The notes below the pieces were generated by a model, which was not told the origin of the DNA, searched no databases, and saw only the letters and a list, made by a program, of their open reading frames with translations. DNA of 64,000 nucleotides from Octopus vulgaris. Lineage: Eukaryota. The DNA lies in assembly GCA_951406725.2 (NCBI GenBank), contig OX597817.1, positions 48,174,001 through 48,238,000 of the forward strand, in the 5' to 3' direction. The translations under genes were made by a program, and so were the position numbers. This document shows positions 15,818 through 62,477 of the stretch, one piece after another (the stretch's first letter is position 1; every line of letters starts with the position of its first letter).

Positions 15818-16268
15818 ATGGGCTTTGAAGGAGTTTTTCATAAATATCAATATAAATTTTGGTTGTTATTAATTTTGGGACATGTTTTATTTATTACTCC
15901 ATCATATTCTAATGAAATTTGTGCGGCAAGTGGTGGTTTTGTGTGCCACGAAGAAAACCCTAGCCAATTCTATCGGTGCATTGGATATAAGAGGAAAATA
16001 TTAATGTCTTGCAATACAGGACTACATTTTGACCCAGAATTTAACGTCTGTAACTGGCCAAACTCTAATGATTGCAGTGCACAGATAAATCGATCAAAAA
16101 CCACCAAGTTAAATGATGTTGGAGCTGCTACAAAACCACCTACAAAGTCTGTAGTTACCACTCACGGTGTTCCTTTCAAACGAAGTTCATTACTAAGTAA
16201 AATTTTGCCAACCACTACTTCTAAACCATCAACTCATCCTCAAACTACAAAGATATTTGAACTCACAG
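15818..16268 (+). CDS. Chitin deacetylase gene A, coding exon 1 (signal peptide, CBM14/peritrophin-A domain, Thr/Ser/Pro linker)
   Basis: ATG 15818 (MGF) is conserved with the paralog; an in-frame ATG at 15812 is an alternative. Hydrophobic FWLLLILGHVLFI..SYS, six-Cys domain with FYRC..SCNTGLHFDPEFNVCNWP, donor G|GTAAGT at 16269 (phase 1). Confidence 0.9.
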
Positions 16269-17257
16269 GTAAGTAATATATTTTCAGTAATTTTACATAC
16301 CAAATCTTTCACTGAAGTTTTTATCTCTTGACATAGTTGTCATTCAAAAAGAAGGAAGTGATCTCTGATTGTCGAACTAGAGTTACATATAAATCAGTTT
16401 ACAGCACTGGTGTCTATTGAAAACTGATTTTTTTTCTCTTTTCTTTTAAACTTGAAATATTTCTTATTCCAAGCAGTCATTTAGCGTTTTGTTTCCCACG
16501 AGCAACCTGTTTTGTTTTTCTAATATTAAATTTCACAAAACGTTAATGAGTTTGCCTTTCAAATTATAACTCTCCGCCTTTTAACGATCTTTCGTATAAA
16601 TTTAATACGTTATTTTAGATACGAGGTATTGTATGCAACTATGCGCTTATGAAACAGCCGAAATATTGGTGCTATTCGTTTGGAGTAAAAGTTTAAGTCA
16701 CATATTATGTCATGCATACGTATCATTGAACTCAGTTCTCAGATTGTGTTGTGGATTGAATCCTTGAGCAATATACTTCATCTCCTGTTGCTTCAGTAAA
16801 CTCTGAAAATCAGCGTTAACATACAATTTTGGGTGATAAAATAATGGAAGTAAATTGCGATAAAATGCGTAAAACTGACACAAATGGAAGTGACGAGAGC
16901 AAAAACCCGCAATGAAAGGCCACCGAAGCAATGACACTGAGCAGATTTAAACTAGAAAATAAATTAAACTTGAAAACAATGTTTGCAAGAAATTTTTCTT
17001 TATAAGCAAAACATGTTATATGAAATCAGATTCGTGAATGACAGTTCATGGTTTCCGAATATACTTCTCCAAAAACACCCCTGCAGATACGATGTATATA
17101 AAGCACTGCCCATTCTGCATTGTCGCCTTGGCTGTTTTTGTTTATTGGCGAGCACCCATCTCACTTCGATTGTTTGAGCATGTATACTCTCATTGTTTTG
17201 ATTTACGAATTTAAAAGTATGGCTTACAACTTCATGTCTATACATATTACCTAAACT

Positions 17258-17548
17258 AATCAAAACCAGAACACAAGGGATGTCGCGGTACACGTGTTTC
17301 AAGCTTTATAAACGACCTCTTCTTACACCAGTGTATAATAGACATAAAGGATGGGTTAAAGCTCTCTTCAGCCGCATGCAATTGTTATACCAAAGAGTTA
17401 CATAATATTAGGAAAAATCCGAGAGGTACATTTAGTATTTTCCATAATGATAGGTATATCAAGTCTCCCTGAGAAAGATGTAAGAATAGGTCGTTTATAA
17501 AGCTTGAAACACATGTACCGCGACATCCTTTGTGTTCTGTTTTTGATT
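17258..17548. repeat. Intronic inverted repeat with about 70-bp arms (17258-17327 / 17479-17548)
   Basis: AATCAAAACCAGAACACAAGGGATGTCGCGGTACACGTGTTTCAAGCTTTATAAACGACC.. and its reverse complement, with few mismatches. Confidence 0.9.
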
Positions 17549-19820
17549 TCATTTGATACATATACCCTCTCACCTTTGCCACTAGCTGGCGTATACAGGT
17601 GCTTACACTTATCAAGTATTCACCCTAGATTTACAGTATTACCAAAACTAACATAGGACGCCCATCCATTGCATATCGTACGCTTCTCTACCAATAACCA
17701 CAAGGTTATAATCAACCAAAGTGTTTCCCGCCTACGATCGGCTTTCATAGACAGCCTTTGCCTGTACGTCTTTCTATTGAGTCAAACGCCCAATGACTCG
17801 CATCGTCCCACTTTCCCCAATGATATTTCCGATACATGTATTTCGATTCATCTAAATCTACGATAAAGGGAAACCCTGCGTAATCTAATCCACCGAGTTG
17901 CTGCGTAGTTACCATTTATTGCTCACAAACATTTCTCATAGTGTTACACCAATCAAAAACGGTATTATTGCTCGGTTCCTTTTTCGAAATTCTTCTCAGT
18001 CTGAGCGCAGTCTGTTAGGTGAAGATGCATGAAACGAATTAGTGTGGATAAGATTAGGTAACCGTTCTCGTGGGGGAAAAATGAGCTCTTAGGCAGCGAG
18101 TGAAACCACATCGCCAGCGCTTGCCATCAGCTCTTTCTGAACGACTCGTTAATTCTGAGCTGGCAGAATCGTTAGCATGCCTGGCGAAATGCTTAGCGAT
18201 ATTTCGTCTGCCGCTGCATTCTGCGTTCAAATTCTGCCGAGGTCAACTTTGCCTTTCATCCTTTCGGGGTCGATAAATTAAGTACCAGCTGAGCACTTAA
18301 CTTTTCCCCACAATTTCCTATAGTAGAAAAGATAAATCTACTAAGACTATTGCATCGGTTGTTTCTGAGCATACACACTAGCATGCCTCGATAAACAAAT
18401 CACGGGATCTTTTTTTCAGGGGTATTCGTTTCTGGGTATACTACCTTACAGCAGTCTGATTCAGCTACATCAGCAATATTTCAGACAAAACCAGAAGATA
18501 GAAAATTTGTTGTTGGATGTCGCATGATCGACTTATGAAGTCAGTAAATTTTTGATAAATAATGTAGAATTTATTTTGGTTAATTACTTTCATCTTGGTA
18601 TTTCACTGACATCACTCGTAGTTTATTTGTTTAATTTCTCCGGCAATTAATCGTCATTCTTTTGGACGGAGCTGCCTGTTAACCAAAATGAGTACCTATA
18701 GCACCTGGAACTAAACCCTGCAAACGACTGGCATCTTGTTAGGCGGGGCAGTGTTGTGTTCTCAGTCTAAACTACTTGAAAATCTACGTAAATTGCGACC
18801 TCATAGACTTGTAGCCTCTCAGCAAATTAAACGAAAAGAGTAATCTCTAGCAATGGAGATGTTTAAACATTCAAATAACGGGATAAAATGGAGAGTTAAG
18901 TTTTGTATTCCACAAACATCAGCTCAAGTGGTCTGTGTAATATACATTGTCTGATATGAATGCGTCAGATAGGTTAAGTTTAGTTAAGAGCCATTCAGCT
19001 AAAATGAGGTATTGTTAACATTGGTGGAAATCTCCCCATAATATTACAAAAGAACTGAAGGCGGAGAGCTAGCATATTCGTTAGCATGTTGGGCTAAATG
19101 CTTAGCGGCCTTTCTTGCGTCTTTATGCTCTGAGTTCAAATTCTGCCGAGGTCTGCTTTGCCTTTCATCCTATCCGGTTTGATAAAATATATACCATTAT
19201 ATTACTGTGTAATATACATTGACTGATATAAATGCGTCGGATAGCTTAAGTTTAGTTAATAACCATTCAGCTAAAATGAAGTATAGTTAACGTTGATGGA
19301 AATCTCTCCACGATATTAGAAAAGAACTGCGTTCACTGATATTCCTCGATAAGCAAGCCGTTGAGTCGCTTTAACAGCGGCGTTCACCGGGTGTATTTCT
19401 TCGTATAACATACACGTTCAGATCTATGTATTTCCACGAAGAATTTCAGTGATCTTTGAAATGATTACTTTATAGTGTAATATAAATATTTTCTGTTCTC
19501 TGATAGTAAAATGGTTATGTTTTCGAGATAACTGCATCATTCTGCTCTCTTGAAAATCAACCTTCCAAAAATCCCCACGGTAAATGAAATTTTTGCGCAG
19601 TTTTCTCTGATTCCACAGATTTCCCCTATTGTTTGCATAGTTGCAATTTTACCCCCGTATCAATGGTTGAAACTCCTGTTTCCTTTTTTATTGTTGTAGA
19701 TCAATAGCTCTAGGCCTCATTCCATATTAGAGTTAATTAGCAGATGTGTGTTCATATCCATTTAAAAAAAAAAAACGTTCATCTTTTGATTTGATTTTGT
19801 TTTTTGTTTTTACTTTGCAG

Positions 19821-20773
19821 GTCCCTGTCAACCAGAATATTGCAAGCTACCGAAATGTAAATGTCCTGGGCCGGAAATTCCAGGCTCATTGCCAATAAAT
19901 GCAATTCCGCAGATAATTCTATTGACTTTTGACGACGGAATTAATGAGCACAATATCGGTTATTACAGGGATTTGTTTGGTTCTAACATAACAAATCCAA
20001 ACGGCTGTCCTATTCAAGCAACATTTTTCGTTTCCGGCGATTATACTATTTATAAAGATGTGAAAGAATTATATGGCCAAGGACATGAAATAGCTTCTCA
20101 TAGCAAATCGCATAAATTTCCACACGCCTATTGGTTGAATTCTGATTACAAGACTTATTCCGATGAAATAGTTGGCATGAAAAACTGGCTTAGTGAAAAG
20201 GCCGATATTCCAGCAAAAGATATTCGTGGAATGCGCTCACCGTTTCTTGCAATGGGAAAAGATGCCCAGTTCAAAATGTTGAAAGATAATAGATTTTACT
20301 ACGATAGTTCGATGGTTACAGGTTCACTTTCTACTACTACAGAGATACCAGTATGGCCCTTTACACTTGATTACCCGGTTATCAAAAAATATTGCCTACT
20401 TAAATACTGTCCAGAGAAATCATATCCAGGATTATGGGAAGTCCCACTTATACGTTGGTACAATGACAAAGGAAGTGCTTGTTCAATGGCTGATTCCTGT
20501 ATAATTCCTCCAAACTCATCGGCTGTCGTAAATTTCTTGAAAGACAACTTTAATCGCCATTATAAAAGAAATAAGGCACCTTTCGGCATATTTTTGCATG
20601 CACCTTGGCTTAAAAATAACTTAAAACCATTGAAGAAATTTTTGGAAGAAGTTGCCCTCAAAAACGATGTATGGATTGTGACTGTGTCTCAAGCTTTGCA
20701 ATGGATTCAGAATCCAGTTCCATTGGACAAAATTTCTGAATTCAGAAATTGGAAATGTAAATTAAATAACTGA
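19821..20773 (+). CDS. Chitin deacetylase gene A, coding exon 2 (CE4 polysaccharide deacetylase catalytic domain); joined protein 467 aa
   Basis: Polypyrimidine tract and TTTGCAG acceptor at 19820 in matching phase. GPCQPEYCKLPKCKC start; motifs TFDDG, NPNGCP, HEIASHSKSH, RSPFL, YDSS, WPFTLD, MADSC, FLH; TGA at 20771-20773. Confidence 0.95.
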
Positions 20774-20911
20774 GGAGAAACAAACAAGATGATGGATATT
20801 TTATGATTCAAAATTGAAGTATTTAAATATATACTTGTTCTCGGAATTTTTACATTTTTACCATTTTTACATTTTTACCATTTCCATTTTTGCAGTTTTA
20901 TCGCTTAATTG

Positions 20912-20917
20912 AATAAA
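20912..20917 (+). terminator. Probable polyadenylation signal of gene A
   Basis: AATAAA in the context TTTTATCGCTTAA(T/C)TGAATAAATT, conserved in gene B (58599-58604, minus strand). Confidence 0.6.
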
Positions 20918-23160: not shown

Positions 23161-23178
23161 TATGTGTCTGTGTGAATG

Positions 23179-23245
<67 letters not shown>

Positions 23246-27178: not shown

Positions 27179-27324
27179 GGTACTGAAATAGACAGAATAA
27201 TGAAAAGGAGCTAATAAGGAGTTTATAATCTGCACAAAAATAGAAGAATAGATGATGGGGTTGAAAATGACAGAACTTATCTGGGCATCTTCTGGGATTC
27301 ATATTTTCAGCCGAGATATTTGAA

Positions 27325-27368
<44 letters not shown>

Positions 27369-27389
27369 GTGTGTGTATGTGTGTGTGTG

Positions 27390-27436
<47 letters not shown>

Positions 27437-27507
27437 ACGTTTATATATGTATGTGTATGTATATATGCATGTATGTATATATGTATATATATATGTATGT
27501 ATATATG

Positions 27508-45705: not shown

Positions 45706-46586
45706 AACTATACTGATTTCATTCATTTACACTCACACATTCCCTTGGACATCGGCAACAAGGACTTCCACTTAACTGACTCAGACTTTCTTTCTTCGCC
45801 CTCCTACAAGGTATGTGTTACCTCAAGCACTCTGTGAACTTAAGCTACCAATTTTCGACTGTATTTCTTCCTGCTTCGAAAGTGTTTATCTCACTTCACA
45901 TCTATGCACTTGGAGGGTCATCCAACGATTGCTTTAGCGTAACTAGTCCGCGCATGCTCAGCTATGACTTAGATCTACACCACCCACCTTCTGCAACCAA
46001 TAACATTTCATGTCAGCTAACTGATTATAGCTCCATCGGTTTTCATACCAGTTATCCCTGGCAATAAATGTACTTTACTTGTGAGTTATGAGAAATAGCT
46101 AGGCATGAGATTGAAAGCAATCCACACGCAAACATGACCTCAATCCTACAAGTAGTTCGATAATAGATGCCCTGCAACAATTCATGTAAAGAACACAGAA
46201 CCCCACACCTGGAGAAAAATCGCTAGCACTACACGCTGGACCCGGTACTGCAACACCTGTAAGACCATCTTTGGAACTGCAACGGTTAGGTCCGTACCTC
46301 GCACCGGTTGAAAGCCCTCGTGAGTCTTAGACTTAAAGTTGGTCACTTACTAAAATTATTTCTACAAACTTTATAGAAACTTTCTTCATGCAACTTTACA
46401 ATGACGATGGTTCATGAAGCAGTATACCCGCAGAGGAAATCACCTTCTTTGCTTCGCGTGTATGAAGTATCTCACAACATACACTAGTTAAATCTGGTCG
46501 CTTCGAGTGGACAATGTCCATTCTATTATCCTCAAACAATGCACCATCAGAAAACAGCAATCTCTTTCTGTTATTTACATTCATCG

Positions 46587-46950
46587 TGGAGGCGCAATGG
46601 CCCAGTGATTAGGGTGGCAAATTTACGGCTTCGATTCCCAGACCGGGCGTTGTGAGTATTTATTGAGTGAAAAAACCTGAAGCACCACGAGGCTCCGGCA
46701 GCGGGTGATGGCGAACCCTACTGTACTCTTTCACAATACCATTCACTCTTTCTTCCTGTTTCTGTTGTACCTGTATTTCAAAGGGCCAGCCTTGTCACAC
46801 ATTGTGTCACGTTGAATCTCCCCGAGAACTACGTTAAGGGTACACGTTTCTGTGGAGTGCTCAGCCACATGCACGTTAATTTCACGACCAGGCTGTTCCG
46901 TTAATCGGATCAACTGGAGCCCTCGTCGTCATAACCGACGGAGAGCCAAG
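46587..46950 (+). mobile_element. tRNA-derived SINE sharing its head with 35272-35580 but with a different tail
   Basis: GGAGGCGCAATGGCCCAGTG..TTCGATTCCCAGACCGGGCGTTGTGAGT..CCACGAGGCTCCGGCAG. Confidence 0.75.
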
Positions 46951-47028
46951 AAATATACAGGCATTGGCATATGGCTACATACATATTCAGACACATATGG
47001 GTAAAACATAAATATATACTAATGCATA

Positions 47029-47530
47029 CACAGGGGTTGGTCAAAATAATGGAAATACCTAGCATCATAATTTTGAAATATCTATAAAACCGTCAAAAGC
47101 TTGTTTATCTTTATGTTTATTTATATATTTATTATTAGTGTTGCTTAATGTTTTGCTAAAATTGCTGGGGTTTTTTCAGATATCATCAGAAAAAGATAAT
47201 TAAAATTCATTAAAATGACCGATCTATCGGTCTTTCAAAGAGATCAAATTGTTGGTGCTCGTATGGCAGGCGCTGGCGTAACGAAAACAGCCGAAATGTT
47301 TGGTGTACTGTCTCGAAAGTATTCACAGCCTTTGAGAAAGAGGGAAAAACCTCCTCGTTGAAACAAAACTCCGAAAGAAAACCAAAACTTTCAGATAGGG
47401 ACCGGCGGATTCTTACGCGAATTGTTAGGAAGGATCACAAAAGTACAGCTCCCAAAATTATTGCAGAGCTTAAAGACCACCTCGTAAACCCAGTTTCCAC
47501 AATAACTCTTCGCCAGGAGATGCACAAAGA
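47029..47530 (+). mobile_element. 5-prime fragment of a second Tc1 family
   Basis: TA|CACAGGGGTTGGTCAAAATAATGGAAA end; MTDLSVFQRDQIVGARMAGA..KTAEMFGV and RKPKLSDRDRRILTRIVRK (HTH region). Confidence 0.8.
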
Positions 47531-48265
47531 CTGTCTATCTATTTTCTCTTTCTAATTTTGTTTCTTTTTCTTTTATTTCTTTTCTTCTTTTCCTTTTTCT
47601 TTCTCTCACCACTTGTTATTCTCTGAGTTTCTTTTCGTTTTCGTTCTCTCGCCTCTGTCTACTAAGGTATTATGTGCGTGTGTGTTTATGCATTTGTATA
47701 TATTTATGTTTTGCCTATATTTGTCTGTATATGTATGCAGTCAGGTACCAACGCCTGTATGTTTAGTGTATATAATGTATGTCTATATAGGTTGTTTGGT
47801 ATGTGTATGTATTGCTAAATGTATATGTATTTCAGGATGTTAGTTCTTTGTAAAAGTTTTTTAAACGTTTATATCTTTTAATTGATATAATTTATCTAAA
47901 TTTATTATTTTTTGCCACGAATTACTTACCCTGGGTATTCAGGGCTCCTTCCTTCTACATAATCTTCTTTGATTTAAGGTTTTCTTCGATTTTTATAATA
48001 ATATGATTTTTGACCGCAATTGTAATTTCATGCAAGCGTTTATTGAAAAGACCGTTAGTTCAAAGGACCAACGAAACAAAAACCATTTTCAACAGTAATT
48101 GTATATGTATGCAAATATCCTTATTTTGTTCCATTTTAAACAAAACTGTCCGAAGAACGGGTACGTGAAACTCTGTATCACAGTTTTTGAGATATTTTTG
48201 CTGCTTTTTTAATAAAGCATATTACTCTACCTCCGGTATTCGGGTACTATTTTCCCGATCCCGAT

Positions 48266-48353
<88 letters not shown>

Positions 48354-49039
48354 GTTTGTGTGGTCTTTCTGACTGTGTTTGTCTTCCATCACCGTTGAAA
48401 ACCAACCGGTGTTGGTGTGTCTACGTTCCCGCAACTAAGTGGTTCGGCAAAGGATTCCATAAGAATAAGTATTGGGCTTAAGAAATACGTCCTGGCGGTG
48501 ATTTTGTGGACTAAATCCCTTCAAGGCGGTGCTCCAGCATGGTCGCTCAGTAGGAGAAATGAGTTTTTGACGTTTGGAACATAGTTCTTCGTCGGAAAGT
48601 AGAAACGGAAAAGCTCAAAGAAGTAGAAAGAAATCACCAACAGCACGTGTGTAGTTACATATACATCACCGTCTTTATGTCCCGGAATATATCACCATAT
48701 CACCTTCTTCGGAAATATGCCACAGTAAGTTTCATTTCTAAGAACAACCCCTCTCACCATACCAACTATCGTTTTATCACGCTCTCAGCATCTGAGAGGT
48801 GATGTAGCCAACCATATAAACACGAGGCTAATCCAGAATGAGCCTTATATTTATAGACCTGGTGTTGTCTGCGTGTGTGTTTGTGGTAGGCTTGGTAGCC
48901 TTCAACTAACACACTCTCCTCTGAAACCGTGCGGCGCAAGTTGACCACAATTGGGAGTATGATAGAAGAAGGTTTGCTCTTTCTTTCGTGGAAGAAAAAA
49001 TTCAAATCGGACCATGTTAATATCAAAATTTAGCTGCTG

Positions 49040-51463
49040 TGAGCATTATACTTTGTAAGACCATTATAAAAATAGAGACTAAATAAAAGATATTATTATC
49101 TATTCAATTGTCAGGTTTTGAATATTAATTAAGGGGATTTAGAAGAAATTTTTATGAGAAAATTTCTAGCAAAAAAAATATTAATTAGCACATATATCAA
49201 GAGCCTTTAAAACATTTTAAAATACAATGGAAGGGAATTAACCAAGATGGAAGTCTTTAGAATTAGGGATTATTAATTTAGTATTCAAGAATGAAATATG
49301 GTTTTTATGGGGTATAATAAATTAGGCCAGTTAGGGGTAATATTTATAAAAAAAGGGGGAAATTAGGTGTAGTAGAATTCTTGCAGAAATAGATATGGAA
49401 AGTACCATTTCAATTAAAACTTAATAATTTCACTAGATATATGGAATTTATGTAATAGTTATAGAAATTTTAAAATATTTTATTCTACTTCATTCAATTT
49501 ATTTATATTACTAAATCTTTTAATAATTAATATTTTTCCTATTTAATCTAGCTATTATAGTTCTTATATTTGGAAGAGTAGAGTATGATATTCTAACTGA
49601 TTTACGAGAAAATATTTTATAATATTTATGGGAAGCAGGGAAGTTTGTTTCTAGTATGGACATAAATTTGTCATATATGTTCGTAGAAATTACTCAGTTG
49701 AAAGGTATATTCAACCATACAATATTTGTACTTATGAAATTTTTTATTTGAGTAAGGGTAGGAAAGATTGGTGATATCCATATCCCTCAGAGTTTTGTTA
49801 TTATCTTCAGTCTTATACATATATTTAATAGGTTTTTTATCAGTGGGAGAGATTTTTATATTTTCATTTGTATTTATTTAACTTAACTTAATCTTTTTAT
49901 ACTTATTTGTGTCTTGTCTACCATTTCTATTATTTGTATCAGGTTTATATGATAGGTTATCTGTTTTGGTTGATTCATATTTTTTTAAAGTTGAAGATTC
50001 AGTTTGAGACATTTTTATTCATTTTCTTATTCGAAAGGCTTGTATTATCAAGATCTAGGAAGGCAATTTCCTGGTTATATCCTGCTCTAGATGAGGCAAC
50101 ATTGTAATGATATGAGTGAGAATTACAAATTTCATTGTTAGAAGATAATTTAGTAATTCTTCTCGAAATACTTTTAACTATCGATTTCAGTATATTTGGG
50201 GAGGGGGGTGATTTGATAATTTATTTACATATCTAGTAATTTCACCATCTTTTCTACATGGGTAATATAATTTCGAGTTTAAATCCAAAGTAACATCTAG
50301 AAAGTTAACTATCTTAGTGTTATATTCATAAGTAATACTTAAGTTGAAATCTTTGAAAAATCTACTAATTTTCTTTCTTATTCTCTCAATGATCGATTTA
50401 TTATTGCTAGGAACGATGAATAATGCATCATCCCTATATAAACCTCCTTGCAATTCAGGGATCTCTCTACTTAAAAATTTTAATAAGTTCCTACTAAATT
50501 AGTGACCTCCGCCGAGTCACTGGAGCCCATGGATATATCAAAATTATTTGGGGTATCAGCCCTGGTCCACAATTTTCCTTCAAATTCTATGATAGTTTTC
50601 CTAGCTAGTAAAATAATATCAATTTCTTCCCTAGTTATGAGAAAGAGGATTTTTTAGCGGAAATGAGTGATTTATTTAGGAGAATATGAGATATACTAGA
50701 ATAGTAATTATTAATGTCGAATTGGATGAAGGAATATCCGCTATTATTATTTAAAGATTTAAACCAATGGATTACCATGTCTGTGTTAATCCATAATTTC
50801 AAAGGAAGGCTAGGGATTATATGGGGCAGAATATTGTCCAAAATAGACTTAGTAAGCCGGCCAATATCCGACTTAGTTGGGCATATAAGTCTTACAGAAG
50901 GGTTGTCACAGAAATTTTTCTTGTGGTCTCAGATTAATTTGAGGTTCACACGGTGTTAATGGCTCTGTCCTGTCAACTAAATCGTATTTCATCATAACGT
51001 TTTTTATTTCTAAATTTATATCCCGCAAGTTCTTCCTTGTAGTTATTTTATATTTCAAGTTCAGTTTTGGTATCTGGTCGGTGTCTGGTCCAAAACGTAA
51101 TTTATAAATGTACAGAAATGACTTCAAATAATAGCTATTTTATTTTCGATGTTCAATAGACCTGAAGAAAAGTATAAACAACCATCTGTCTAGCTTTAGA
51201 CTTAAACATAAGGCAGGTTGCATAACGCTGTCTAGAAAAATTTGGGAGTTGAAAGAAAAAATATCGGATTTAGCCTTAAATGGGATATAATAAGACAGGC
51301 GCAGCCTTATAAGAATAGTAGAGATGGATGTGAACTTTATTCTATGGAGATATATGAAATTTTGAAATATAGGGATAATATAAACTTATTGAACAACCGT
51401 TTTGATCTAGGAGCATCTTGTATACACTGTGCCACCCGTACCTTTAGATATTTTAAAGAATAA
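49040..51463 (-). mobile_element. Penelope-like element (YRDD-type RT), decayed, with an inverted endonuclease-end fragment at about 51150-51463 (+)
   Basis: FIQFDINNYYSSI, FDISMGSSDSAEV, GGLYRDDALFIV, VNFLDVTLDL, YVNKLSNHPP on the minus strand; LKWDII..Y...CEL..E..IL..LLNNRFDLGASCIH on the plus strand. Confidence 0.8.
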
Positions 51464-51599
51464 CATTCTGGCTATTCCTATATATATATGTATGTATGCG
51501 TGTATATATATGTATGTATGTATGTGTGTATATATATTGCATATTTTCATTCATCAATAGATTGAGGGCGATGACTGAATACTTTTGATTTTAAATATC

Positions 51600-51790
51600 T
51601 CCACAAGAAGAAATCGCATTTCACAATTCCAGAAGAAATGATCCCCAGAGTTATCGATAACTTTCATGAACGTCTCCAACAGTGTGTTGACAATGATGGG
51701 AAGCATTTAGCTGATTTAATTTTTAAAACATAATGAAATAAAATGGCATTATATGTACATTCGGAAAATACAATTTTTCGTTTCATTATT
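51600..51790 (+). mobile_element. Tc1/mariner-superfamily transposase C-terminal remnant
   Basis: RVIDNFHERLQQCVDNDGKHLADLIFKT*. Confidence 0.5.
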
Positions 51791-51820
51791 TCTTATTTTG
51801 TGCTTTTAAGTATGTTTATA

Positions 51821-51894
<74 letters not shown>

Positions 51895-53282
51895 GATATT
51901 TCTTTACTACCCACAAGGGGCTACACACAGAGGGTCAAATAAGGACAGACAAACGGATTACGTCAACCCCAGTGCGTAACTGGTACTTAATTTATCGACC
52001 CCGAAAGGATGAAAGGCAAAGTCGACCTCGGCGGAATTTGAACTCAGAACGTAACGGCAGACGAAATACAGCTACGCATTTCGCCCAGCGTGCTAACGTT
52101 TCTGCCAGCTCGCCGCCTTTTGGCTGTGTGGTAGGTAGCTTGTTTACCAACCACATGGTTCTGGGTTCAGTCCCACTGCGTGGCACCTTGGGCAAGTGTC
52201 TTCTACTATAGCCCCGGGCCGACTAATGCCTTGTGAGTGGATTTGTTAGACGGAAACTGAAAGAAGCCCGTCGTATATATGTATATATATATATGCGTGT
52301 GTGTGTGTGTTTGTGTCTGTGTTTGTCCTCCTAGCATTGCTTGACAACCGATGCTGGTGTGTTTATGTCCCCGTTACTTAGCGGTTCGGCAAAAGAGACC
52401 GATAGAATAAGTACTGGGCTTACAAAGAATTAGTACCGGGGTCGAGTTGCTCGATTAAAGTCGGTGCTCCAGCATGGCCGTAGTCAAATGACTGAAACAT
52501 GTAAAAGAATAAAAGAATATATATATATATATATATGTGTATGTGTGTGTGTGTGTATGTATATATATACATGTATGAGTATATGTATATATATATGTAT
52601 ATATATACATACATGTGTGTGTATGTATGTATGAATGTATGTATATATGTATATATGTATGGTGAAAGTAACTAACTGTACTGAAGCTGGTGGTGGTGGT
52701 GGTTGTGGTAGTAGTAGTAGTAGTAGTAGTAGTTGTTGTTGTAGTAGTATTAGTATTAGTAGTAGCAGTAGTAGTAGTAGTAGCAGTAGTAGCTAGCAAA
52801 TGTACTGGAACTGGCAATAGCAACTACACTAATAGTAGTCGTGATATGGGTTTCGACAGCCTTGAATTCAGCGACGTCAAGTAGCTTCTATAAGCCACTG
52901 GTTTGACAAATCCCACTTGGAAGTTGAGATGGTCAATAGAAACTAACTACTAGCAGGTCATATGGTCCCCAGTTGAAAAATACTGATTTATGTCTGTGTT
53001 TGTATATATCATCATCATCATCATCATCATCATTTAGCGTCCGCTTTCCATGCTAGCAATTTCCATTGATGTTGATCGACTTCGAGTTTGGTTCTGATTT
53101 CCACTTGCCTCAACAGGCCTTCACAAGTGTAGATTTGTGTCCCAAGAAGGAAAGGTATGCATAAGTCGACTGGCTACATCCCAGGTAGAGGCCATGGGTT
53201 ATGGTCTCACTTGTCCCGCCGGGTCTTCTCACGCACAGCATACTTCCATAGGTCTCGGTCTCTAGTCATTTCCTTGGTGAGA

Positions 53283-53362
<80 letters not shown>

Positions 53363-53458
53363 TATATATATATACATATAATTAGGAAAAAAACCCACCT
53401 TTTATCAATTCAAAAGGAACAATTAAATTACACCATCTAGAAAATTACATACAATATA

Positions 53459-54363
53459 CAAGTGGGCTGAAAAGAATTGCATGCAGTTCAATGCTGAAAA
53501 GTTTCAAGCTTTATACTATCAGCATGCAAAATTAAATGCAATACCCAATAAATACACTGGACCTGGAGGGGTTGCACTCCCAGAGATACAATCAGTGCGA
53601 GACCTGGGTATTTACATGAGTGATGATGCAACCTTTCATGTGCATGTTGCTAAATTGGCAATGAAATGTAGGCGGCTGACCGGATGGATTCTTAGAACTT
53701 TTAGAACAAGAGACCAGGAAACCGTGATGGTCCTCTGGAGGACACTTGTCCTCAGCCACTTTGACTATTGCTCTCAGCTATGGTCACCATCCAGTGTCAA
53801 GTTAATCACAGAACTTGAGGCGATCCAACGAAGCTACACGAAGAAGATAGCCTCTGTGCAGCGTATAAGCTATTGGGAAAGACTGAGGAGATTGAGACTC
53901 TATTCCTTGGAGCGTAGGCGAGAAAGATATGCCATAAAATACATCTGGAAGATCCTAGAAGGACTTGTCCCAAACTTTGGCATCGAGAGTTACACAAATG
54001 CCAGAACTGGGCGCCACTGCATAGTGCCAAGGACTCCAAATTTGCCATCAATATGTAGGACAAGATACTGTGATAGCCTGGGCTTCCGAGGCCCACAGCT
54101 CTTCAGTATCCTCCCGAAGAACCTAAGAGATCTGCATGGGGTGGATGCAGATGTCTTTAAAATGAAACTGGATCTCTTCTTGTCAGGTGTCCCAGATGAA
54201 CGAACGTCACGGCAGGAGGTGCAGATGAGGGCAGCTGCATCGAACTCTCTCATGCACCAGATGGCATTTGCTAAAAAGCATTCGTGAAATAAAATCATGT
54301 AGCAACACCAAATGGCGGTGCCCCAGCATGGCCACAGCTTGTGAGCTGAAACTAAAAAAAAAA
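53459..54363 (+). mobile_element. 5-prime-truncated CR1 LINE (268-aa open C-terminal ORF2, 3-prime stem-loop, A tail)
   Basis: MQFNAEK, RDLGI, ILRTF, LVLSHFDYCSQLWSP, LEAIQR, SYWERL..LYSLERRRER. Confidence 0.9.
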
Positions 54364-56453
54364 AGAAATATTAAAATGAAAATAACAATAAAATGTCAAT
54401 GAGTAAGTAAATTGCAAAAAATAACAATAATTATTTATTATTTTATTATTTTTATTATTATTATTATTATTATTATATGCAATTTACTTAATCATTGACA
54501 TTTTATTGTCATTTTAATTTTAATATTTCTATTATATGTAATTTTCTAGATGGTGTAATTTAATTGTTCATTTTGAATTGATAAAAGGTGGGTTTTTTCT
54601 AATTTTATATATATATATATCATATTGTGTGAAATTTCGTTTTTGGATTAGGTATGCACACACACACTGACCCACACATTTGCGCACAAAACTGAAAGAA
54701 GCCCGTCGTATATATGTAAATACATATATGTGTGTGTGTGCCTGTATGTTTGGGTGTCTGTGTTTGTCCCCCTAGCATTGCTTGACAACTGATGCTGGTG
54801 TGTTTATGTCCCTGTCACTTAGCGGTTCGGCAAAAGAGACTGATAGAATAAGTACTGGGCTTACAAAGAATAAGTCCCGGGGTCGAGTTGCTCGATTAAA
54901 GGCAGTGCTCCAGCATGGCCGCAGTCAAATGACTGAAACAAGTAAAAGAGTAAAAGAGAATAAGTTTTGTGATATATCTGCTGCTTTTCAGTAAAGCATA
55001 GTCCTCTACCTCTGGCATTCGAGTACTATATCTTCCATTTTGTTTCACATTTATGTGCTCCTTTCAGGGCTATCTGCTTGATCTAAAAGGCTTCTCACAT
55101 TCCAATAGGCCAGGTTAAGAGAAACTTTATTCCTTGCATACATGTTATCGTTGTTTGTATCAGTTCTTTGTTCATTCCTGCTAAATTAAACCACCGTTCA
55201 CCGCAGTAAACTAACCAGCAGAGGAACGACAGACAATTTTTATTGCACTTTTTGTAGCACTTTTCCAGTGTATCTAGGTGAGAAATGTTCTCCTTGAAAG
55301 AGCTGCCCAGACAGAATATTCTCTACGGAAAACAGTTCCTGTCCATGAAAACATGTTAGTGATTGTTAAGACAAGAACCCTGCCGCCTTTTGTGCAGATT
55401 TGTAACTGTATGTTTCCAACAGGCCAAGGCTGCATTTATGTTGCTACAATCCTTAACACTGCATCAAGAACATTAAAATGCGTTTTCCAAAAATCATTCA
55501 GTGTCAAATCATTTGAAGAAACGATCTCGAAAGCGTTTATGAAAAGGAATCTTTATAGTGAGTGTTCTTTTAGAAACGATCGGAAGTGACCTGCTGGTCT
55601 GATGGACAGTGAAATGGAAATGTGGTGTGAGGCAATAAATTTACTTTTACAAATCTCAGCTATTCTGCAGCTGGTCCATCAAATAAGGAGAGTGTGCTGG
55701 GGCCAAAAGTCCTTTGACCAGAAATGCCTTGAGAAAAATGTATGAAACAGCTCGGCTTGCAAGATACATTCTAGCCCTATAAAACCCTGGTGTTTTAGGG
55801 GCTCCATAAGCCTGTTGGACGTGGATCTCAGGGCACTCGCCTCCTTTATTCCTGAACTACTAAATTTATGACAATGGAAGTTGACATATGTATAGACAAT
55901 TGATAGGTAAATATTTCTGCATTATAAAAATCTTGTTGACGTCGGCCATTCTTCTGATGACATCATCAGTTGTTCTCAGATGAGCTAAAATTTAGGTCTC
56001 CTATAGTGTTCAAAATGTCTTCCAAAACCAGTAAGACAATGACCATGAAACTTTACAGGGATATGGGTACAGCACAGGAAAAAAAAATTTTAATAATTTT
56101 AAAAATGACGTCATCAAATTTATCCAATTTAAAACAAGAAACATTTTGCCTTTCTATTTGTTGAAAGTTTCCAGGAACTACTCATACTATGATATGAAAT
56201 TTGGCGAGAATATACATCAGTAGCAAACAAATATTTTTTTTGTAACAGCAATTTTGCTATTGTTTCTATTGTATAATCAAATTTTATTTAACCAGACAGA
56301 AAAATTAAGTGGTAAGTAGCTTGCTTACCAGCCACATGGTTCCGAGTTCAGTCCCACTGCGTGGCTTCTTGGGAAAGTGTCTTCTACTATAGCCTCGGGC
56401 CGAAAATTGCCTTTTGAGTGGATTTGGTTGACGGAAACTGAAAGAAGCCTGTC

Positions 56454-56503
<50 letters not shown>

Positions 56504-58147
56504 ATATGTTTGTGTGTCTGTGTTTGTCCCCCTAGCATTGCTTGACAACCGATGCTGGTGTGTTTACGTCCCCGTAACTTAGCGGTTCGGCAAAAAGAGA
56601 CCGATAGAGTACGTACTGGGCTTACAAGGAATAAGTCTCAGGGTCGATTTGCTCTAAAGGCGGTGCTCCACCATGGCCGCAGTCAAATGACTGAAACAAG
56701 TAAAAGAGAGAAAAGAGAGATATACCACCTGTTCAACTCCTACCGTTTCTAGGGCAACGAAGAAAACTTTTTTCGAAATCAGTGATATGAGCTTTTAGCA
56801 GGATAAATTTCAGGCTAAGTAACCCAGTTTCAGAGAAAAATCTTCTTTCGAAAGTTATGAAAATAATAATAAAAAAAAGGCTCAGAGAGTCCTTTTTACC
56901 AGGCATAACAGGGTTAAAAGAATAACTCAAAAACGTAGAAGAGAAGAAGAGATCACTTGAAAATCCAGTGGCTTCAATATCTGCTCGCGCAGATGTGCTG
57001 CAACGGTCATCGTCAGCTGCTGGTATCTTAGTAACGCTTACCCGCATCACGTTCCACTCGTTCGCTCTGACGTCGAAACAAATCATTTGGAGCATAACAC
57101 ACACACGAGCTCGATCGAGCCGGCCGGTGGATAGTCGTTTCTTTCCTTCTCGTGCCACATGCCAAAGCTTCGAATGGTACTTCTTACTCTCATGATACAG
57201 TGTAAAATTAAACAACCCGTACTGGTTTTATGAACGCAGTATATTTATGTTTAGCATCTGGTACTATTTTGTGTTCGTGAAGAGCAGTCGTAAGATGGAG
57301 AGAGTGTAACATATCAACACACCATTTAAGATATATCTAGAATTCACCTCACATTTATACGTAGACTGCGTCAAAGAAATTTTCTTGTTATATAACTATT
57401 CGTAAAGCGGCGAGCTGGCAGAATCGTTGGCACGCCCAACAGAATGCTTAGCGACATTTCATCCGTCTTTACATTCTGAGTTCAAATTCCGTTGAGGTCG
57501 ACTTTACCTTTCATCCTTCCGGGGTCGATAACATAAGTATCAGTTGAACACTGCCGTCATTGTAATAGACTTATCTCCTTCCCCGAGCTTGATGGACTTG
57601 TACCAAAATTTGAAATCGTTATATTAATTATTCGTAGTTGTTGCGGCAACATTATACACTAAATACCCTACATTGAATAACCTATACTGCACTTTACCAA
57701 ATGGCTTACAGTATTTTGCTAAGTTTTCAAAGTAACTATTTTTATTCGATCTATTTCTTGCTCTCACAGCATAAAATTAACCTCATTATTTCAATCAGTT
57801 TACATACAAGTTTTGTTCTCTCAGATTCCATTGTTTTATATTTCATTTCGTAGATTACTAAACTTTCAATTTCTCTTATTTCTATTCAAGAATATCTTTT
57901 CTTTTACTTGTTTCAATCATTAGACTGCAGCCAAGCTGAGGCATCACTTTCAAGAATTTTAGACGAACGAAATCAACCCCAGCACTTGTCTTTTTAAAGC
58001 TTGGTGCTTATTCTATCGGTCTCTTTGCTGAGCCGCGAAGCACATGAGCACATCCAAACCAGTTGTCAAGCAGTGATGGAGACAAACACAGACAATATGT
58101 ACCCTAATATTTTTACCAGAGATCAATCCTATAGCCACTACACACGC

Positions 58148-58233
<86 letters not shown>

Positions 58234-58791
58234 TCATTTTCCGTCTAACAAGTAGAAATGTAATGGAAAATTGGTCAGTTTCAAAACATTGATGTTCAGG
58301 TCAGAAAAGCAAAGTTTGAAGGCAATTGTAGTCATTTATAAACATCGTTTTATTGAAGCGAAGTATATTTACATAATGAACTGTATAAATCTACTAGAAA
58401 TTCAGTCTTAATTCGTATTTCATCTAATATATATAAGATATAAAATATTTTCAAATTTCATACGAGTTTGTAATAAAAATTAAGCAATTCATAATTTTAT
58501 AATGGCATATTTTAATAAGATTACTTAGCAAAGCTTTAAAAATTTTCAATTGATTTCTTAAGAGTGGTAGTAATACATTTCTACGTATTTTTACGTAATT
58601 TATTCAGTTAAGCGATAAAACTTCATAAAGGGTAATAAGAAAATATGTAAAAGATTGATGAAGAGCAAACTATTAAAAAACACCCAAAGAATGGCAAAAT
58701 TCCGAGAACAATAAGTGACATTTTAAATAGTTTAAATTTTCAATCGAAAAATACCCATCATCTTGTTTGTTTCTCCTTCTCAGTTATTTAA

Positions 58792-59738
58792 TTAACATTT
58801 CCAATTCCTGAATTCTGAAATTTTGTCCAATGGAACTGGATTCTGAATCCATTGCAAAGCTTGAGACACAGTCACAATCCATACATCGTTATTGTGGGAA
58901 ACTTCTTTCAAAAATGTTTGCAATGCAGCTAAATTCTTCATAAGCCATGCCATATGCAAAAATATGCCGAAAGGTGCCTTATTTCTTTTGTAATGGCGAT
59001 TAAAGTTGTATTTCAAGTAACTTATGACATCCTTTGAGTTTTGAGGAACTCTATTTTCATCAGTCATTGAAAAAGAATCATCTCCTGCTTCATTGTACCA
59101 ACGATTAAGAGGGAATTCCCAAAATCCTGGATATGAGTTATTTGGGCAGACTCTAAGTTGGCAATATTTTTTGATAACCGGGTAATCAAGTGTAAAGGGC
59201 CATATTGGTATTTCTGTAGTATTAGAAAATGAACCTGTTACCATCGAAGTATCGTAGAGAAATTCATTAAGTTTCAAAGTTCCAAACTGGGTGTCGCCCC
59301 CTTGTTCAAGATACGGTGAACGATATCCTACAATTTTTTCTTTTGGAATACTGGCCTCTTCACTAAGCCAGTTTTTCATGCCAACAATTTCACGATAATA
59401 ATCACTGGAATTAGCATTATTCCAGTATGTAGATGGGAGTCTATGCGTTTGGGTGTGAGTAGCTATTTCATGCTTTAGGTCATATAATTCTTTCACGAGA
59501 GCAGGATCAGAATATTTGCTGTCGGACACGTAAAACGTTGCTCCAACAGGACAGCCGTTTGGATTGGTTAGGTTCATGCTAAACAAATTTCTGTAATAAT
59601 CGAAAGTTTGCCAGTAAATTCCGTCGTCAAAAGTCAATAGAATTATCTGCGGAGTTGCATTTGTTGGAAGGGAGCCTGGAATTTCCGTCCCAGGGCATTT
59701 ACATTTCGGTAGCTTGCAACGTTCTGGTTGACAGGGAC
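58792..59738 (-). CDS. Chitin deacetylase gene B, coding exon 2 (CE4 catalytic domain); joined protein 600 aa
   Basis: TTTGCAG acceptor at 59739. GPCQPERCKLPKCKC start; TFDDG, NPNGCP, HEIATHTQTH, RSPYL, YDTS, WPFTLD, MTD, FLH; TAA at 58794-58792. Confidence 0.95.
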
Positions 59739-61621
59739 CTGCAAAGTAAAAAAAACCATAAAATCAAACCAAAAGATGAAAGTTTTTTTTTTTTAATGGA
59801 TACGAACACACATCTGCTAACTAACTCTTATATGGAATGAGGCCTAGAGCTATTGGTCTACAATAATAAAAAACGGAACAGGAGTTCCAACCATTGATAC
59901 GGGTGTAAAAATGCAATTATACAAACAATAGGGGAAATCTGTGGAATCAGAGAACACGGCACAAAAATTTCATTTGTCGTGGGGATTTTGGAAGGTTGTT
60001 CATCAACAGAGAGCAGAATGATGCAGTTATCTTGTAAACATAACCATTTATACGATTATTGCTATCGGAGAAAAATAAATAATTATATAACACTATAAAT
60101 TAATCATTTCAAAGATCACTGAAATTCTTCGTGAAAATACATAGATCTGAACGTGTATGTTATGCATAGAAATACACCCGGTGAACGCCGCTGTTAAAGC
60201 GACTCCATGGCTTGCTTATCGAGGAATATCAGTGAACGCAGTTCTTTTCTAATATCGTAGAGAGATTTCCATCAACGTTAACTATACTTCATTTTAGCTG
60301 AATGGTTATTAACTAAACTTAAGCTATCTGACGCATTTATATCAGTCAATGTATATTACACAGTAATATAATGGTATATATTTTATCAAACCGGATAGGA
60401 GGAAAGGCAAAGCAGACCTCGGCAGAATTTGAACTCAGAGCATAAAGACGCAAGAAAGGCCGCTAAGCATTTAGCCGAACACGCTAAAGAATATGCTAGC
60501 TCTCCGCCTTCAGTTCTTTTGTAATAATATGGGGAGATTTCCACCAATGTTAACAATACCTCATTTTAGTTGAATGGCTCTTAACTAAACTTAACCTATC
60601 TGACGCATTCATATCAGGCAATGTATATTACACAGACCACTTGAGCTGATGTTTGTGGAATACAAAACTTAACTCTCCATTTTATCCCGTTATTTGAATG
60701 TTTAAACAATCGAAGTGAGATGGGTGCTCGCCAATAAACAAAAACAGCCAAGGCGACAATGCAGAATGGGCAGTGCTTTATATTCATCGTATCTGCAGGG
60801 GTGTTTTTGGAGAAGTATATTCGGAAACCATGAACTGTCATTCACGAATCTGATTTCATATGACATGTTTTGCTTATAAAGAAAAATTTCTTGCAAACAT
60901 TGTTTTCAAGTTTAATTTATTTTCTAGTTTAAATCTCTTCTATGTCATTGCTTCGGTGGCGTTTATTTTTTGTTATCTATGCAGAATATTACAGAATATA
61001 CTTTCATTTTGGTTTTCCGCCCTCGTCACTTCCAGTTGTGACAGTATTACTCATTTTATCGCCAATTACTCTCATTATTTTATGACTCAAAACTATGTTG
61101 ATCCTGATTACCAGAGTTTACTGGAGCAACAGGAGATAAAATACCCTATTCAAAAACCCAACCCGCAACACAGTTCGAGAATTGAGTCCAAAGTCACCTT
61201 TTCAGGATGAAATATAGTAGTTAAAATGACTATATCCTATACTATATACAATACCTCTTATCTAAAATAATCTATTAAACTTGTACACAAGATCGTTAAC
61301 AGGTGGTGAATTACAATTTCGGATATAAACTCATGTTTTACGCCGTTTAATATTTTAAGAAATGGTCGTTCGTAAGAAGCAACATAAAATCGATAAATGA
61401 CTGCTTAGAATAGGAAATATTTTAAGCTTAAAAGATAAGAGAAAGAACAGCAGTTTTGAATAAATACCAAATTCAGAGTGTTGTAAACTGGATTATATAT
61501 AACTCTAGTTCGACAATCAGAGACCACTTATTTCTTATTGAGTTACTACTGTGGCAAGAGATAAAAACATCACTGGAAGAAGAGATTTGGTACATAAAAT
61601 TCTTGAAAATATATTACTTAC

Positions 61622-62477
61622 CAGTGAGTTGGGGTTTAGAAGTAGTGGTTTTTGACTGATCATCCTGGTTGTGGCACTTGACAGCGTTTGGAATATTTGA
61701 ACAGGTACAGATGCTAGCTACTGGATTGAAATGAGATCCTTCAGGACAAGTTTTTAATGCGCCTGTTTCAAATCCCGTACAAAGATAGAATAGGGAATTG
61801 TTTGTTTCATGGCACTTATATTCATTGCTTTTTCTACAGCTTTTCAGAGAATTTGATGGTTTAGAAGTAATTTGAGAATGAGTTGATGGTTTAGAAGTAG
61901 TTTGAGGATGAGTTGATGGTTTAGAAGTAGTTTGAGATTGAGTTGATGGTTTAGAAGTAGTTTGAGAATGAGTTGAAGGTTTAGAAGTAGTTTGAGGATG
62001 AGTTGATGGTTTAGAAGTAGTTTGAGATTGAGTTGATGGTTTAGAAGTAGTTTGAGAATGAGTTGATGGTTTAGAAGTAGTGGTTGACAAAATTTTACTG
62101 AGTGTTGAACTTCGCTTGAAAGGAACACTGTGAGTGGTAACTACAGACTTTGTAGGTGATTTGGTAGTAGCTCCAACATCATGGGTGGTTTTTGACTGAT
62201 CTCTCTGTGTTTTGCAATAGCCATCGCCATCGACTTCCCAGTCACAGACGTTATACTGTGGATTGAATTCTAGTCCATTACCACAATTTAGCAATATGCC
62301 GTGTTTAGGTCCTGTACAATGATAGAATTTGGAATCGTCTGTTTCATGGCACTTATATTCACCGGCTTCTGTACAGCTTTCCTGAGAATATGATGGAATA
62401 ATAAATAAGACATGGAGCAAAATTAATGACAGCCAAAATGTGTGTTGGCGTCTCTGGTAAAAACTTTGAAAGCCCAT
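61622..62477 (-). CDS. Chitin deacetylase gene B, coding exon 1 (signal peptide, CBM14, mucin-like repeat, second CBM14)
   Basis: ATG 62477; FWLSLILLHVLFIIPSYS signal; two Cys-rich domains (CHETDDSKFYHC..CGNGLEFNPQYNVCDW and CHETNNSLFYLC..CPEGSHFNPVASIC); donor G|GTAAGT at 61621 (phase 1). Confidence 0.92.
61854..62081 (-). repeat. Coding 30-bp tandem repeat TTSKPST(H/Q)(S/P)Q, 7 copies plus a partial
   Basis: TTAGAAGTAGTTTGAG..TGAGTTGATGGT units are visible in register. Confidence 0.97.

What the first reader, a model, noticed from the sequence alone, without database searches (positions are those of the whole stretch)
15818..62477. Convergent pair of secreted CBM14-CE4 chitin deacetylases in a probable cephalopod genome
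Seen: two intact two-exon genes with the same phase-1 intron, signal peptides and the CE4 motifs (TFDD, H-S/T-x-x-H, RxPF/Y, the Asp of MxD, LH). Established: metazoan chitin deacetylases are best studied in arthropods, where groups I/II carry an LDLa domain that is absent here. Inference: a locally expanded chitin-to-chitosan remodelling module, possibly for beak, radula, sucker or gut lining, or for handling crustacean prey.
Basis: partly seen in the sequence, partly recalled or inferred. Interest (0 to 1): 0.72.

Follow-up and report, generated by a model that had tools for sequence, protein, structure and literature searches.

The report
Fast-diversifying octopus chitin deacetylase cluster
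These two real, intact genes belong to an eight-gene octopus cluster of enzymes predicted to be secreted and to strip acetyl groups from chitin; several young copies have swapped parts and differ more in coding than in neighbouring non-coding DNA, likely under selection, but the enzyme family itself is well known.

Summary
Observation confirmed. Gene A (+, 467 aa) and gene B (-, 600 aa) are intact two-exon genes: predicted signal peptide, CBM14, Thr/Ser/Pro stalk, CE4 domain with all five catalytic motifs. B has two CBM14 domains. B's predicted fold matches Bombyx CDA8 (TM 0.92). A's intron is spliced out in 4 of 4 runs laid, B's in 1 of 4. Both are already annotated as Octopus 'chitin deacetylase 7-like'. 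Lacking LDLa is not special: insect groups III/IV and gastropods share this layout.

They are not a pair but 2 of 8 CE4 genes in about 290 kb. Six form an Octopus-only clade in my sample, supporting local expansion. One neighbour is an A/B chimera; another carries a stop codon. B differs from its closest paralog at 8.0% of replacement sites versus 2.3% of intron sites. Variable residues include the equivalent of a known substrate subsite. Formal selection tests are positive but weaken to p about 0.05 under rate variation. Peptides of cluster neighbours, not of A or B, occur in octopus arm mucus. Activity and tissue are untested.

Verdict: known enzyme family, undescribed diversifying cluster; interest 0.45.

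The parts
15707..15741 (+). Gene A core-promoter-like TATA variant plus initiator-like hexamer (motif labels recalled); the same arrangement lies before all six close paralogs
   Evidence: (2 matches in the window, 0.14 expected by chance; pattern read off these two genes)
15818..16268 (+). Gene A exon 1: predicted signal peptide (about aa 1-31), CBM14 (aa 35-86, 15920-16075), Thr/Ser/Pro/Lys stalk; phase-1 donor
16269..19820 (+). Gene A intron, GT..AG, 3552 nt; 18860-19320 is only 2% diverged from B's intron
19821..20773 (+). Gene A exon 2, CE4 domain. Exon-2 numbering: Asp37 base (19931), Asp38/His93/His97 metal triad (19934, 20099, 20111), Arg138 (20234), Asp224 (20492), His259 (20597)
   Evidence: roles of the base, triad and Arg by alignment to BmCDA1/8 (PMC6463723); roles of the motif-4 Asp and motif-5 His recalled from the CE4 mechanism
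20912..20917 (+). Gene A polyadenylation-signal-like AATAAA; contigs of two runs end 11-16 nt after it (weak hint only)
44536..58805 (.). Segmentally duplicated flanks (95-99% to the units around B, g7 and g8); no CE4 or exon-1 remnant found here
58792..59738 (-). Gene B exon 2, CE4 domain: Asp37/Asp38 (59628, 59625), His94/His98 (59457, 59445), Arg139 (59322), Asp226 (59061), His261 (58956); the two Cys flanking motif 4 are lost (8 Cys against 10 in A)
59739..61621 (-). Gene B intron, GT..AG, 1883 nt, phase 1
61622..62477 (-). Gene B exon 1: predicted signal peptide, CBM14-1 (about 62375-62214), 7.6 x 30-nt Thr/Ser/Pro repeat (62081-61853), CBM14-2 (Pfam stretch 61838-61692)
62563..62597 (-). 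Gene B TATA box plus initiator-like hexamer (motif labels recalled)

Best explanation
A and B are two of six young Octopus paralogs, inside an eight-gene CE4 array, that encode likely secreted, zinc-dependent chitin de-N-acetylases, which probably act on chitin at the animal's surface epithelia (skin, sucker or foregut cuticle and mucus). Mechanism, inferred from BmCDA8 and BmCDA1: one or two CBM14 domains hold the enzyme on chitin through a mucin-like stalk. An Asp-His-His zinc site with the motif-1 Asp as base (and, recalled, the motif-5 His as acid) would remove acetate from some GlcNAc residues along an open cleft, leaving partly deacetylated, cationic chitin. Shown: gene structure, motifs, fold model, splicing of A, the cluster, the chimera g7 (B-type exon 1, A-type exon 2), and excess coding over non-coding divergence between B, g7 and g8. 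Inferred: tandem and inverted duplication with gene conversion homogenises introns and flanks, while selection likely keeps cleft-side loops and CBM14 surfaces different, giving enzymes with different substrate preference.
For: Fold: AF2 model of B, pLDDT 96, TM 0.92 to 5z34 and 5znt; phmmer E 6e-73 for A. All 8 key residues are kept in all six paralogs. A neutral simulation of the ~170 substitutions on the B lineage kept the frame open in 0.12% of 20,000 runs, and frame plus 8 key residues in 0.01%. A is spliced in 4 of 4 runs. O. vulgaris arm mucus (PMC10138644 Table S1): 4 spectra (3 peptides) match g2 and 1 spectrum matches g3/g4. Octopus oesophagus, crop and stomach are cuticle-lined (PMC9501996 passages). 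Divergence: B vs g8, replacement sites 59/734 against intron 36/1588 (p 6e-10), flanks 1.8-4.3%, CpG-context transitions only 7 of 70 differences. A vs B: intron 2-8%, central exon 22%, the peak-of-divergence pattern described for opsins (PMC3924837 passages). CBM1: pN 0.11-0.33 against pS 0.01-0.13 among g3, B, g7, g8. M1a/M2a p 1e-4 (F3x4) and 4e-4 (F61); the top site, 101, aligns with BmCDA8 Gln125, a subsite residue shown by mutagenesis, and reads H, S, V or I in the paralogs. O. vulgaris-bimaculoides identity: cluster orthologs 88% and 84%, unlinked CDA 97%.
Against: No activity data. BmCDA1 has all motifs yet is inactive without an accessory protein. No peptide of A or B in the stored, truncated mucus table, so the surface role rests on neighbours and 5 spectra. 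Selection tests weaken: p 0.049 with site rate variation, 0.11 and 0.047 by segment. Pairwise N-versus-S Fisher tests are not significant (0.14 and 0.23). CBM1 omega = 1 is not rejected under M0 (p 0.06-0.12), and M2a gives an implausible omega of about 25 on clustered multi-base changes. Synonymous sites are also raised over introns (11/208, p 0.018), so conversion history alone explains part of the contrast. A vs g7 and g3 vs g4 show no clear coding excess over non-coding DNA. The codon models are my own code on 6 sequences and one fixed tree. g8 has a premature stop here.
Confidence: 0.55

Rival explanations
1. Feeding enzymes: secreted in saliva or the foregut to deacetylate or loosen crustacean chitin together with salivary chitinase, and diversified like other predatory secretions.
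For: Chitinase is reported in octopus posterior salivary gland, digestive gland and stomach (PMC9501996 passages). Secreted layout and rapid coding divergence. The expansion is confined to Octopus in my sample.
Against: The cluster peptides found come from arm skin mucus, though contamination by saliva or gut fluid is not excluded. No direct salivary evidence was obtained either way.
Confidence: 0.2
2. Immune or wound effectors: released by haemocytes or mucus cells to alter microbial, parasite or self chitin signals, with diversification driven by microbes.
For: A 'chitin deacetylase' is the third most abundant transcript (about 16,000 TPM) in Sepia officinalis haemocytes (PMC7551771 passages and supplement rows). 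Mucus location of neighbours. Gene conversion, gene gain and loss, and variable binding surfaces resemble immune families (own knowledge).
Against: The Sepia protein in my tree does not fall in the six-gene clade. Chitin is chemically invariant, so an arms race needs an unidentified partner.
Confidence: 0.13
3. Mostly neutral birth-and-death array of weakly active, chitin-organising proteins; the B type is under relaxed constraint, and apparent selection comes from conversion patches and multi-base mutations.
For: omega 1.2-1.35 on B-type branches. Loss of the motif-4 Cys pair. Stop codon in g8. B junction seen only once, at low depth. 8 of 18 A/g7 codon differences carry the B base. Weak tests under rate variation. 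Insect CDAs are often poorly active in vitro.
Against: About 40% of codons fall in an omega about 0 class. Catalytic residues and the open frame are kept against neutral expectation. The g8 ortholog is intact in O. sinensis (P0301).
Confidence: 0.12

Closest known systems
Bombyx mori CDA8 (group V, PDB 5z34) and CDA1 (group I, 5zns/5znt)
   Same: Insect-type CE4 fold (TM 0.92, 34-37% identity for B); Asp-His-His triad, motifs 1-5, motif 4 of the S/A-M-x-D form.
   Different: The octopus domains end about 45-50 residues earlier and lack most of the C-terminal loop region that forms one end of the insect cleft (alignment against, 21 numbering). They carry CBM14 without LDLa. The B type lacks the motif-4 Cys pair. 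They lie in a separate molluscan clade (100/98).
Insect group III (CDA4) and group IV (CDA5) chitin deacetylases
   Same: CBM14 plus catalytic domain without LDLa; group IV also has a Ser/Thr/Pro-rich linker. Cda5 proteins are abundant among the arthropod hits at 42-46%.
   Different: Not orthologous in the tree: the two CDA5 rows fall outside the molluscan clade. The octopus linker is far shorter, and B, g7 and g8 have two CBM14 domains. No CDA4 was labelled in my tree.
Molluscan CBM14-CE4 proteins (Haliotis, Patella, Babylonia and others; Argonauta P0005)
   Same: Same domain order and same molluscan clade; Argonauta is the sister row at 62%.
   Different: The gastropod rows form their own clades. 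The six-gene expansion appears only in Octopus among the proteins sampled.
Public annotation 'chitin deacetylase 7-like' of Octopus vulgaris, O. sinensis and O. bimaculoides
   Same: A is annotated in full (P0296, P0001, P0298); B's domains are in P0072.
   Different: Several models are faulty: P0071 fuses g3 and g4, P0072 and P0004 replace the signal peptide with a repeated upstream piece, and P0002 joins a g3-type exon 1 to A's exon 2. The '7-like' name is a best-hit label, not group V membership.

Membership tests
CE4 chitin deacetylase (metazoan type) | NodB / polysaccharide deacetylase domain, (beta/alpha)7 barrel | tested here: met
   Pfam PF01522 above cut-off for both; model of B TM 0.92 to 5z34; A not folded
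CE4 chitin deacetylase (metazoan type) | Motif 1 TFDD and motif 2 H-S/T-x-x-H (base plus Asp-His-His metal triad) | tested here: met
CE4 chitin deacetylase (metazoan type) | Motif 3 RxPY/F, motif 4 Asp, motif 5 His | tested here: met
   B's motif 4 keeps the Asp but lost both flanking Cys
CE4 chitin deacetylase (metazoan type) | Metal-dependent release of acetate from chitin or chito-oligomers | not testable with these tools
   needs recombinant enzyme; motifs alone do not guarantee it (BmCDA1)
CE4 chitin deacetylase (metazoan type) | Secretion | tested here: inconclusive
   hydrophobic N-terminus only; neighbours g2 and g3/g4, not A or B, found in mucus
Insect group I/II CDA | CBM14 + LDLa + catalytic domain | tested here: not met
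   no LDLa hit; definition
Insect group IV CDA (CDA5) | CBM14 joined to the catalytic domain by a Ser/Thr/Pro-rich linker, no LDLa | tested here: met
   linker shorter, and B has a second CBM14
Insect group IV CDA (CDA5) | Clade membership with CDA5 | tested here: not met
   Penaeus and Andrena CDA5 fall outside the molluscan clade (100/98); no AU test run
Insect group V CDA (CDA6-9, source of the '7-like' name) | Catalytic domain only, no chitin-binding domain | tested here: not met
   A and B have CBM14; only g1, and probably g2, lack it
Locally expanded, lineage-specific family | Paralogs group together to the exclusion of other molluscs | tested here: met
   (98/97 Octopus only; 100/99 with Argonauta); squid, cuttlefish and Argonauta genomes could not be scanned, so sampling is thin
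Family under positive selection | A class of sites with omega > 1, robust to recombination and rate variation | tested here: inconclusive
   p 1e-4 and 4e-4; 0.049, 0.11 and 0.047; CBM1 mixed

The most novel reading that the evidence does not exclude
Octopus has turned a housekeeping chitin deacetylase into a combinatorial, positively selected repertoire. Recombination in the single phase-1 intron swaps chitin-binding and catalytic exons, selection diversifies the substrate cleft and CBM14 surface, and the enzymes are shed into mucus to write different acetylation patterns on chitin, in an arms race with chitin-sensing microbes, parasites or crustacean prey. This would be an immune-gene-like mode of evolution in an animal chitin-modifying enzyme.
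Probability: 0.2. Interest if true: 0.75.

Novelty: new member of a known kind. Interest (0 to 1): 0.45.

Why it matters
Animal chitin deacetylases are understood almost only from insects. My ten literature searches found no study of an octopus one. If active, six closely related natural variants that differ at a known substrate subsite are a ready series for learning how cleft residues set the pattern of acetylation, and possible biocatalysts for the beta-chitin of cephalopods (own knowledge). If the selection signal holds, it raises the question of why an enzyme with an invariant substrate diversifies quickly, and points to an unstudied chitin/chitosan layer in octopus skin, sucker or gut biology. 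The locus also needs re-annotation, since several public models are fused or lack their signal peptide.

Tried and rejected
No run on record as RNA was listed; RNA status is the tool's guess. B had no cover in 3 of 4 runs laid; the runs were chosen on A, so this says nothing on B's expression.

Salivary-gland supplement of PMC7693380 (file cut when stored): no CDA name or motif in the stored part. Mucus supplement of PMC10138644 (cut; highest row seen 2573, against 5937 spectra in the paper; Table S2 not seen): none of the A- or B-derived peptide terms. The unseen parts may hold A or B peptides. PMC9547907 has no 'chitin' or 'deacetylase' in its main text. PMC7560691 names chitin deacetylase only in a reference. 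Six locus and protein ids gave 0 papers. The primary paper on divergence peaks under conversion was not held, so a review was used.

A B-type protein of O. bimaculoides was not among 8 hits at E <= 1e-85 or the cluster members read; this is not proof of absence. No third gene or remnant exon lies between A and B. Earlier scan findings: none.

Rejected: chance ORFs or pseudogenes; LDLa loss as a novelty; CpG hypermutation as the cause of exon divergence (7 of 70 differences); independent SINE insertion as the cause of intron identity (same site and flanks, 2% apart, while other copies in the window align at about 75-85%). Not excluded: g3/g4 (98% alike over 14.5 kb) may be two haplotypes assembled in tandem. 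No complex prediction was sent, as no binding is claimed.
Full report
OBSERVATION. A (+): exon 1 15818-16268, GT..AG intron of 3552 nt, exon 2 19821-20773, 467 aa. B (-): exon 1 62477-61622, intron of 1883 nt, exon 2 59738-58792, 600 aa. Both introns are phase 1. Pfam gives CBM_14 in exon 1 (twice in B) and Polysacc_deac_1 in exon 2, all above cut-off. A TATA-like plus initiator-like pair (labels recalled) precedes both genes: 2 matches in the window, 0.14 expected, though the pattern was read off these genes. The same pair precedes four neighbours. I laid 4 of the 24 listed runs, one from each of four studies; all were found with A's exon 2 and are guessed to be RNA. All 4 skip A's intron exactly, with the intron uncovered except at repeats. 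B's junction appears in 1 of 4, as one low-depth contig from a related organism whose exon-1 side fits B better than its paralogs.

IDENTITY. A is 99% identical to O. sinensis 'chitin deacetylase 7-like', 88% to an O. bimaculoides protein and 62% to an Argonauta protein. It is identical to a protein named O. vulgaris (P0296). The closest solved structures are Bombyx CDA8 and CDA1. The model of B's catalytic domain (pLDDT 96) superposes on 5z34 with TM 0.92. From Liu et al. 2019 (PMC6463723, parts 1-3 of 6 read): motif 1 holds the base and one zinc ligand, motif 2 two zinc ligands, and motif 3 the Arg that stabilises the base. BmCDA8 is active and needs subsites 0, +1 and +2 (Gln125 and Ser241 by mutagenesis); BmCDA1 needs an accessory protein. 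All key residues are present in A, B and their four close paralogs. The octopus domains stop about 45-50 residues before the insect C-termini and so lack most of the C-terminal loops. B and g8 have lost both Cys around motif 4, likely one disulfide (inferred from the paired loss).

CONTEXT. The window is G000:C4:48174001-48238000. The genome search scored 21 of 21 candidates and kept 18 matches (a lower bound), 8 of them in C4:48.006-48.295 Mb. In a 348-kb stretch the order is g1(-), g2(+), g3(+), g4(+), A(+), B(-), g7(-), g8(+). g3, g4, A, B, g7 and g8 share the two-exon plan. g3, g4 and A have one CBM14; B, g7 and g8 have two. g8 has a TAG in CBM2 (C4:48291216), whereas its O. sinensis ortholog is intact. 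g1 and g2 are distant (47%). g1 has a signal-only first exon 86 kb upstream and no motif-4 Asp. Flanks of B, g7 and g8 are segmental duplicates at 95-99%.

PHYLOGENY. FastTree was run on 82 CE4 domains (5 rows dropped as short or redundant: P0002, P0004, P0027, P0061, P0066) and IQ-TREE on 39 hand-picked rows. The two trees agree on the octopod clade. In the IQ-TREE tree the six close paralogs and their O. sinensis and O. bimaculoides counterparts form a clade (98/97), sister to Argonauta (100/99). This sits in a 32-row molluscan clade (100/98; 2 rows unnamed) that excludes arthropod CDA1, CDA5 and CDA8. The A type and g3/4 type have O. bimaculoides orthologs, so they predate that split. The B type was found only in O. 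vulgaris and O. sinensis. Other cephalopod genomes could not be scanned. CBM14+CE4 without LDLa is the layout of insect groups III and IV (PMC7953033 passages) and of gastropod proteins, so the architecture is not new.

EVOLUTION WITHIN THE ARRAY. g7 is a chimera. Its promoter, exon 1 and 5' intron are B/g8-type (intron 2-3% diverged), and its 3' intron and exon 2 are A-type. A and B differ by 2% at intron -960..-500, 8% at -500..0 and 22% in the centre of exon 2. This is the divergence peak expected when selection resists gene conversion (PMC3924837 passages). B vs g8 differ at 59/734 replacement sites, 11/208 synonymous sites and 36/1588 intron sites (p 6e-10 and 0.018 against intron), and only 7 of 70 differences are CpG-context transitions. 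In CBM1, pN is 0.11-0.33 against pS 0.01-0.13 among g3, B, g7 and g8. My codon models on six exon-2 sequences gave M0 omega about 0.8 and M1a/M2a p 1e-4 (F3x4) and 4e-4 (F61). High-posterior sites lie just after motif 1 (41-43), after motif 2 (101-102, 109-110), at 79 and next to the motif-5 His (260). Site 101 aligns with BmCDA8 Gln125 (offset derived from the paper's triad numbers). Between O. vulgaris and O. bimaculoides, cluster orthologs are 88% and 84% identical, against 97% for an unlinked CDA.

RESULTS AGAINST SELECTION. The test falls to p 0.049 with site rate variation, and to 0.11 and 0.047 in two segments. Pairwise N/S tests are not significant. The CBM1 signal rests on clustered multi-base changes: M0 does not reject omega = 1, and M2a gives omega about 25. 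Eight of 18 A/g7 codon differences carry the B base, and most ortholog differences in O. sinensis match another paralog's residue, so conversion patches contribute. A vs g7 and g3 vs g4 show no clear coding excess. Pure decay of the B type is nevertheless unlikely: 0.12% of neutral simulations kept the frame open. I put diversifying selection at about 0.6.

WHERE IT ACTS. In the stored, truncated part of the O. vulgaris arm-mucus proteome (PMC10138644, passages and supplement rows), 4 spectra match g2 and 1 matches g3/g4. None of the terms for A or B was found. Octopus oesophagus, crop and stomach have a cuticle, and salivary chitinase is reported (PMC9501996 passages). A chitin deacetylase of unknown clade ranks third in cuttlefish haemocytes and is unchanged by Vibrio (PMC7551771 passages and supplement). 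The tissue of A and B is therefore open; a surface-epithelium role is the best-supported guess.

MECHANISM. Shown: gene structure, motifs, fold model, splicing of A, the cluster, the chimera and the divergence contrasts. Inferred: secretion, tethering by CBM14 on a mucin-like stalk, zinc-assisted acid/base de-N-acetylation of part of the GlcNAc residues, and paralog-specific preferences set by cleft loops. My odds: CE4 CDA family 0.97; A active 0.75; surface role 0.5.

NOVELTY. The genes are in public annotation, some as faulty models. Ten searches of the held library showed no study of octopus chitin deacetylases or of this array. The 10 papers holding both 'chitin deacetylase' and 'octopus' were seen as listings; two were also searched for passages. 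Subscription journals are not covered. Verdict: new members of a known enzyme family in an undescribed, fast-changing array. It would be about 0.75 if selection-driven substrate diversification is confirmed.

Noticed in passing
G000:C4:48007085-48006132 (-), first exon near 48093323: g1 is a CBM-less CDA with an 86-kb phase-1 intron; its motif-4 Asp is replaced by Gly, so it may be catalytically impaired. It is nearly identical to O. sinensis P0315.
   Followed up: partly
G000:C4:48291216: Premature TAG in CBM2 of g8; the O. sinensis ortholog has Gln. It could be a null allele, a young pseudogene or an assembly error.
   Followed up: partly
G000:C15:837664-841494, 861862-862761 and 66577965-66580862: Long open frames (862-1329 aa) with tandem CE4 domains, several with degenerate motifs; related multi-CE4 proteins are common among the representative hits.
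   Followed up: no
G000:C4:48269247-48281127: A tandem array of about 12 kb with a 69-bp period, copies about 91% alike, between g7 and g8.
   Followed up: no
window 18076-18443, 19050-19200, 60370-60500 and other copies: A SINE-like repeat in both introns draws very high contig depth in the laid runs (over 100,000 summed in one run), i.e. a very abundant repeat family.
   Followed up: no
window 8100-13250 (+): LINE retrotransposon with endonuclease and reverse transcriptase domains broken over several frames; more RT remnants at about 24200-27200 (-), and probably 53400-54300.
   Followed up: partly
window 21614-23162 (+): Tc1/mariner-type DDE transposon remnant 0.9 kb downstream of gene A, 96% identical to a copy at C4:48087613.
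   Followed up: partly
window 5522-5987: 60-bp minisatellite, 7.8 copies at 96%, open in several frames; no sign of coding function was sought.
   Followed up: no
P0002, P0071, P0072, P0004: Public gene models at this array are fused, chimeric or lack the signal peptide, probably because of the shared repeats.
   Followed up: partly
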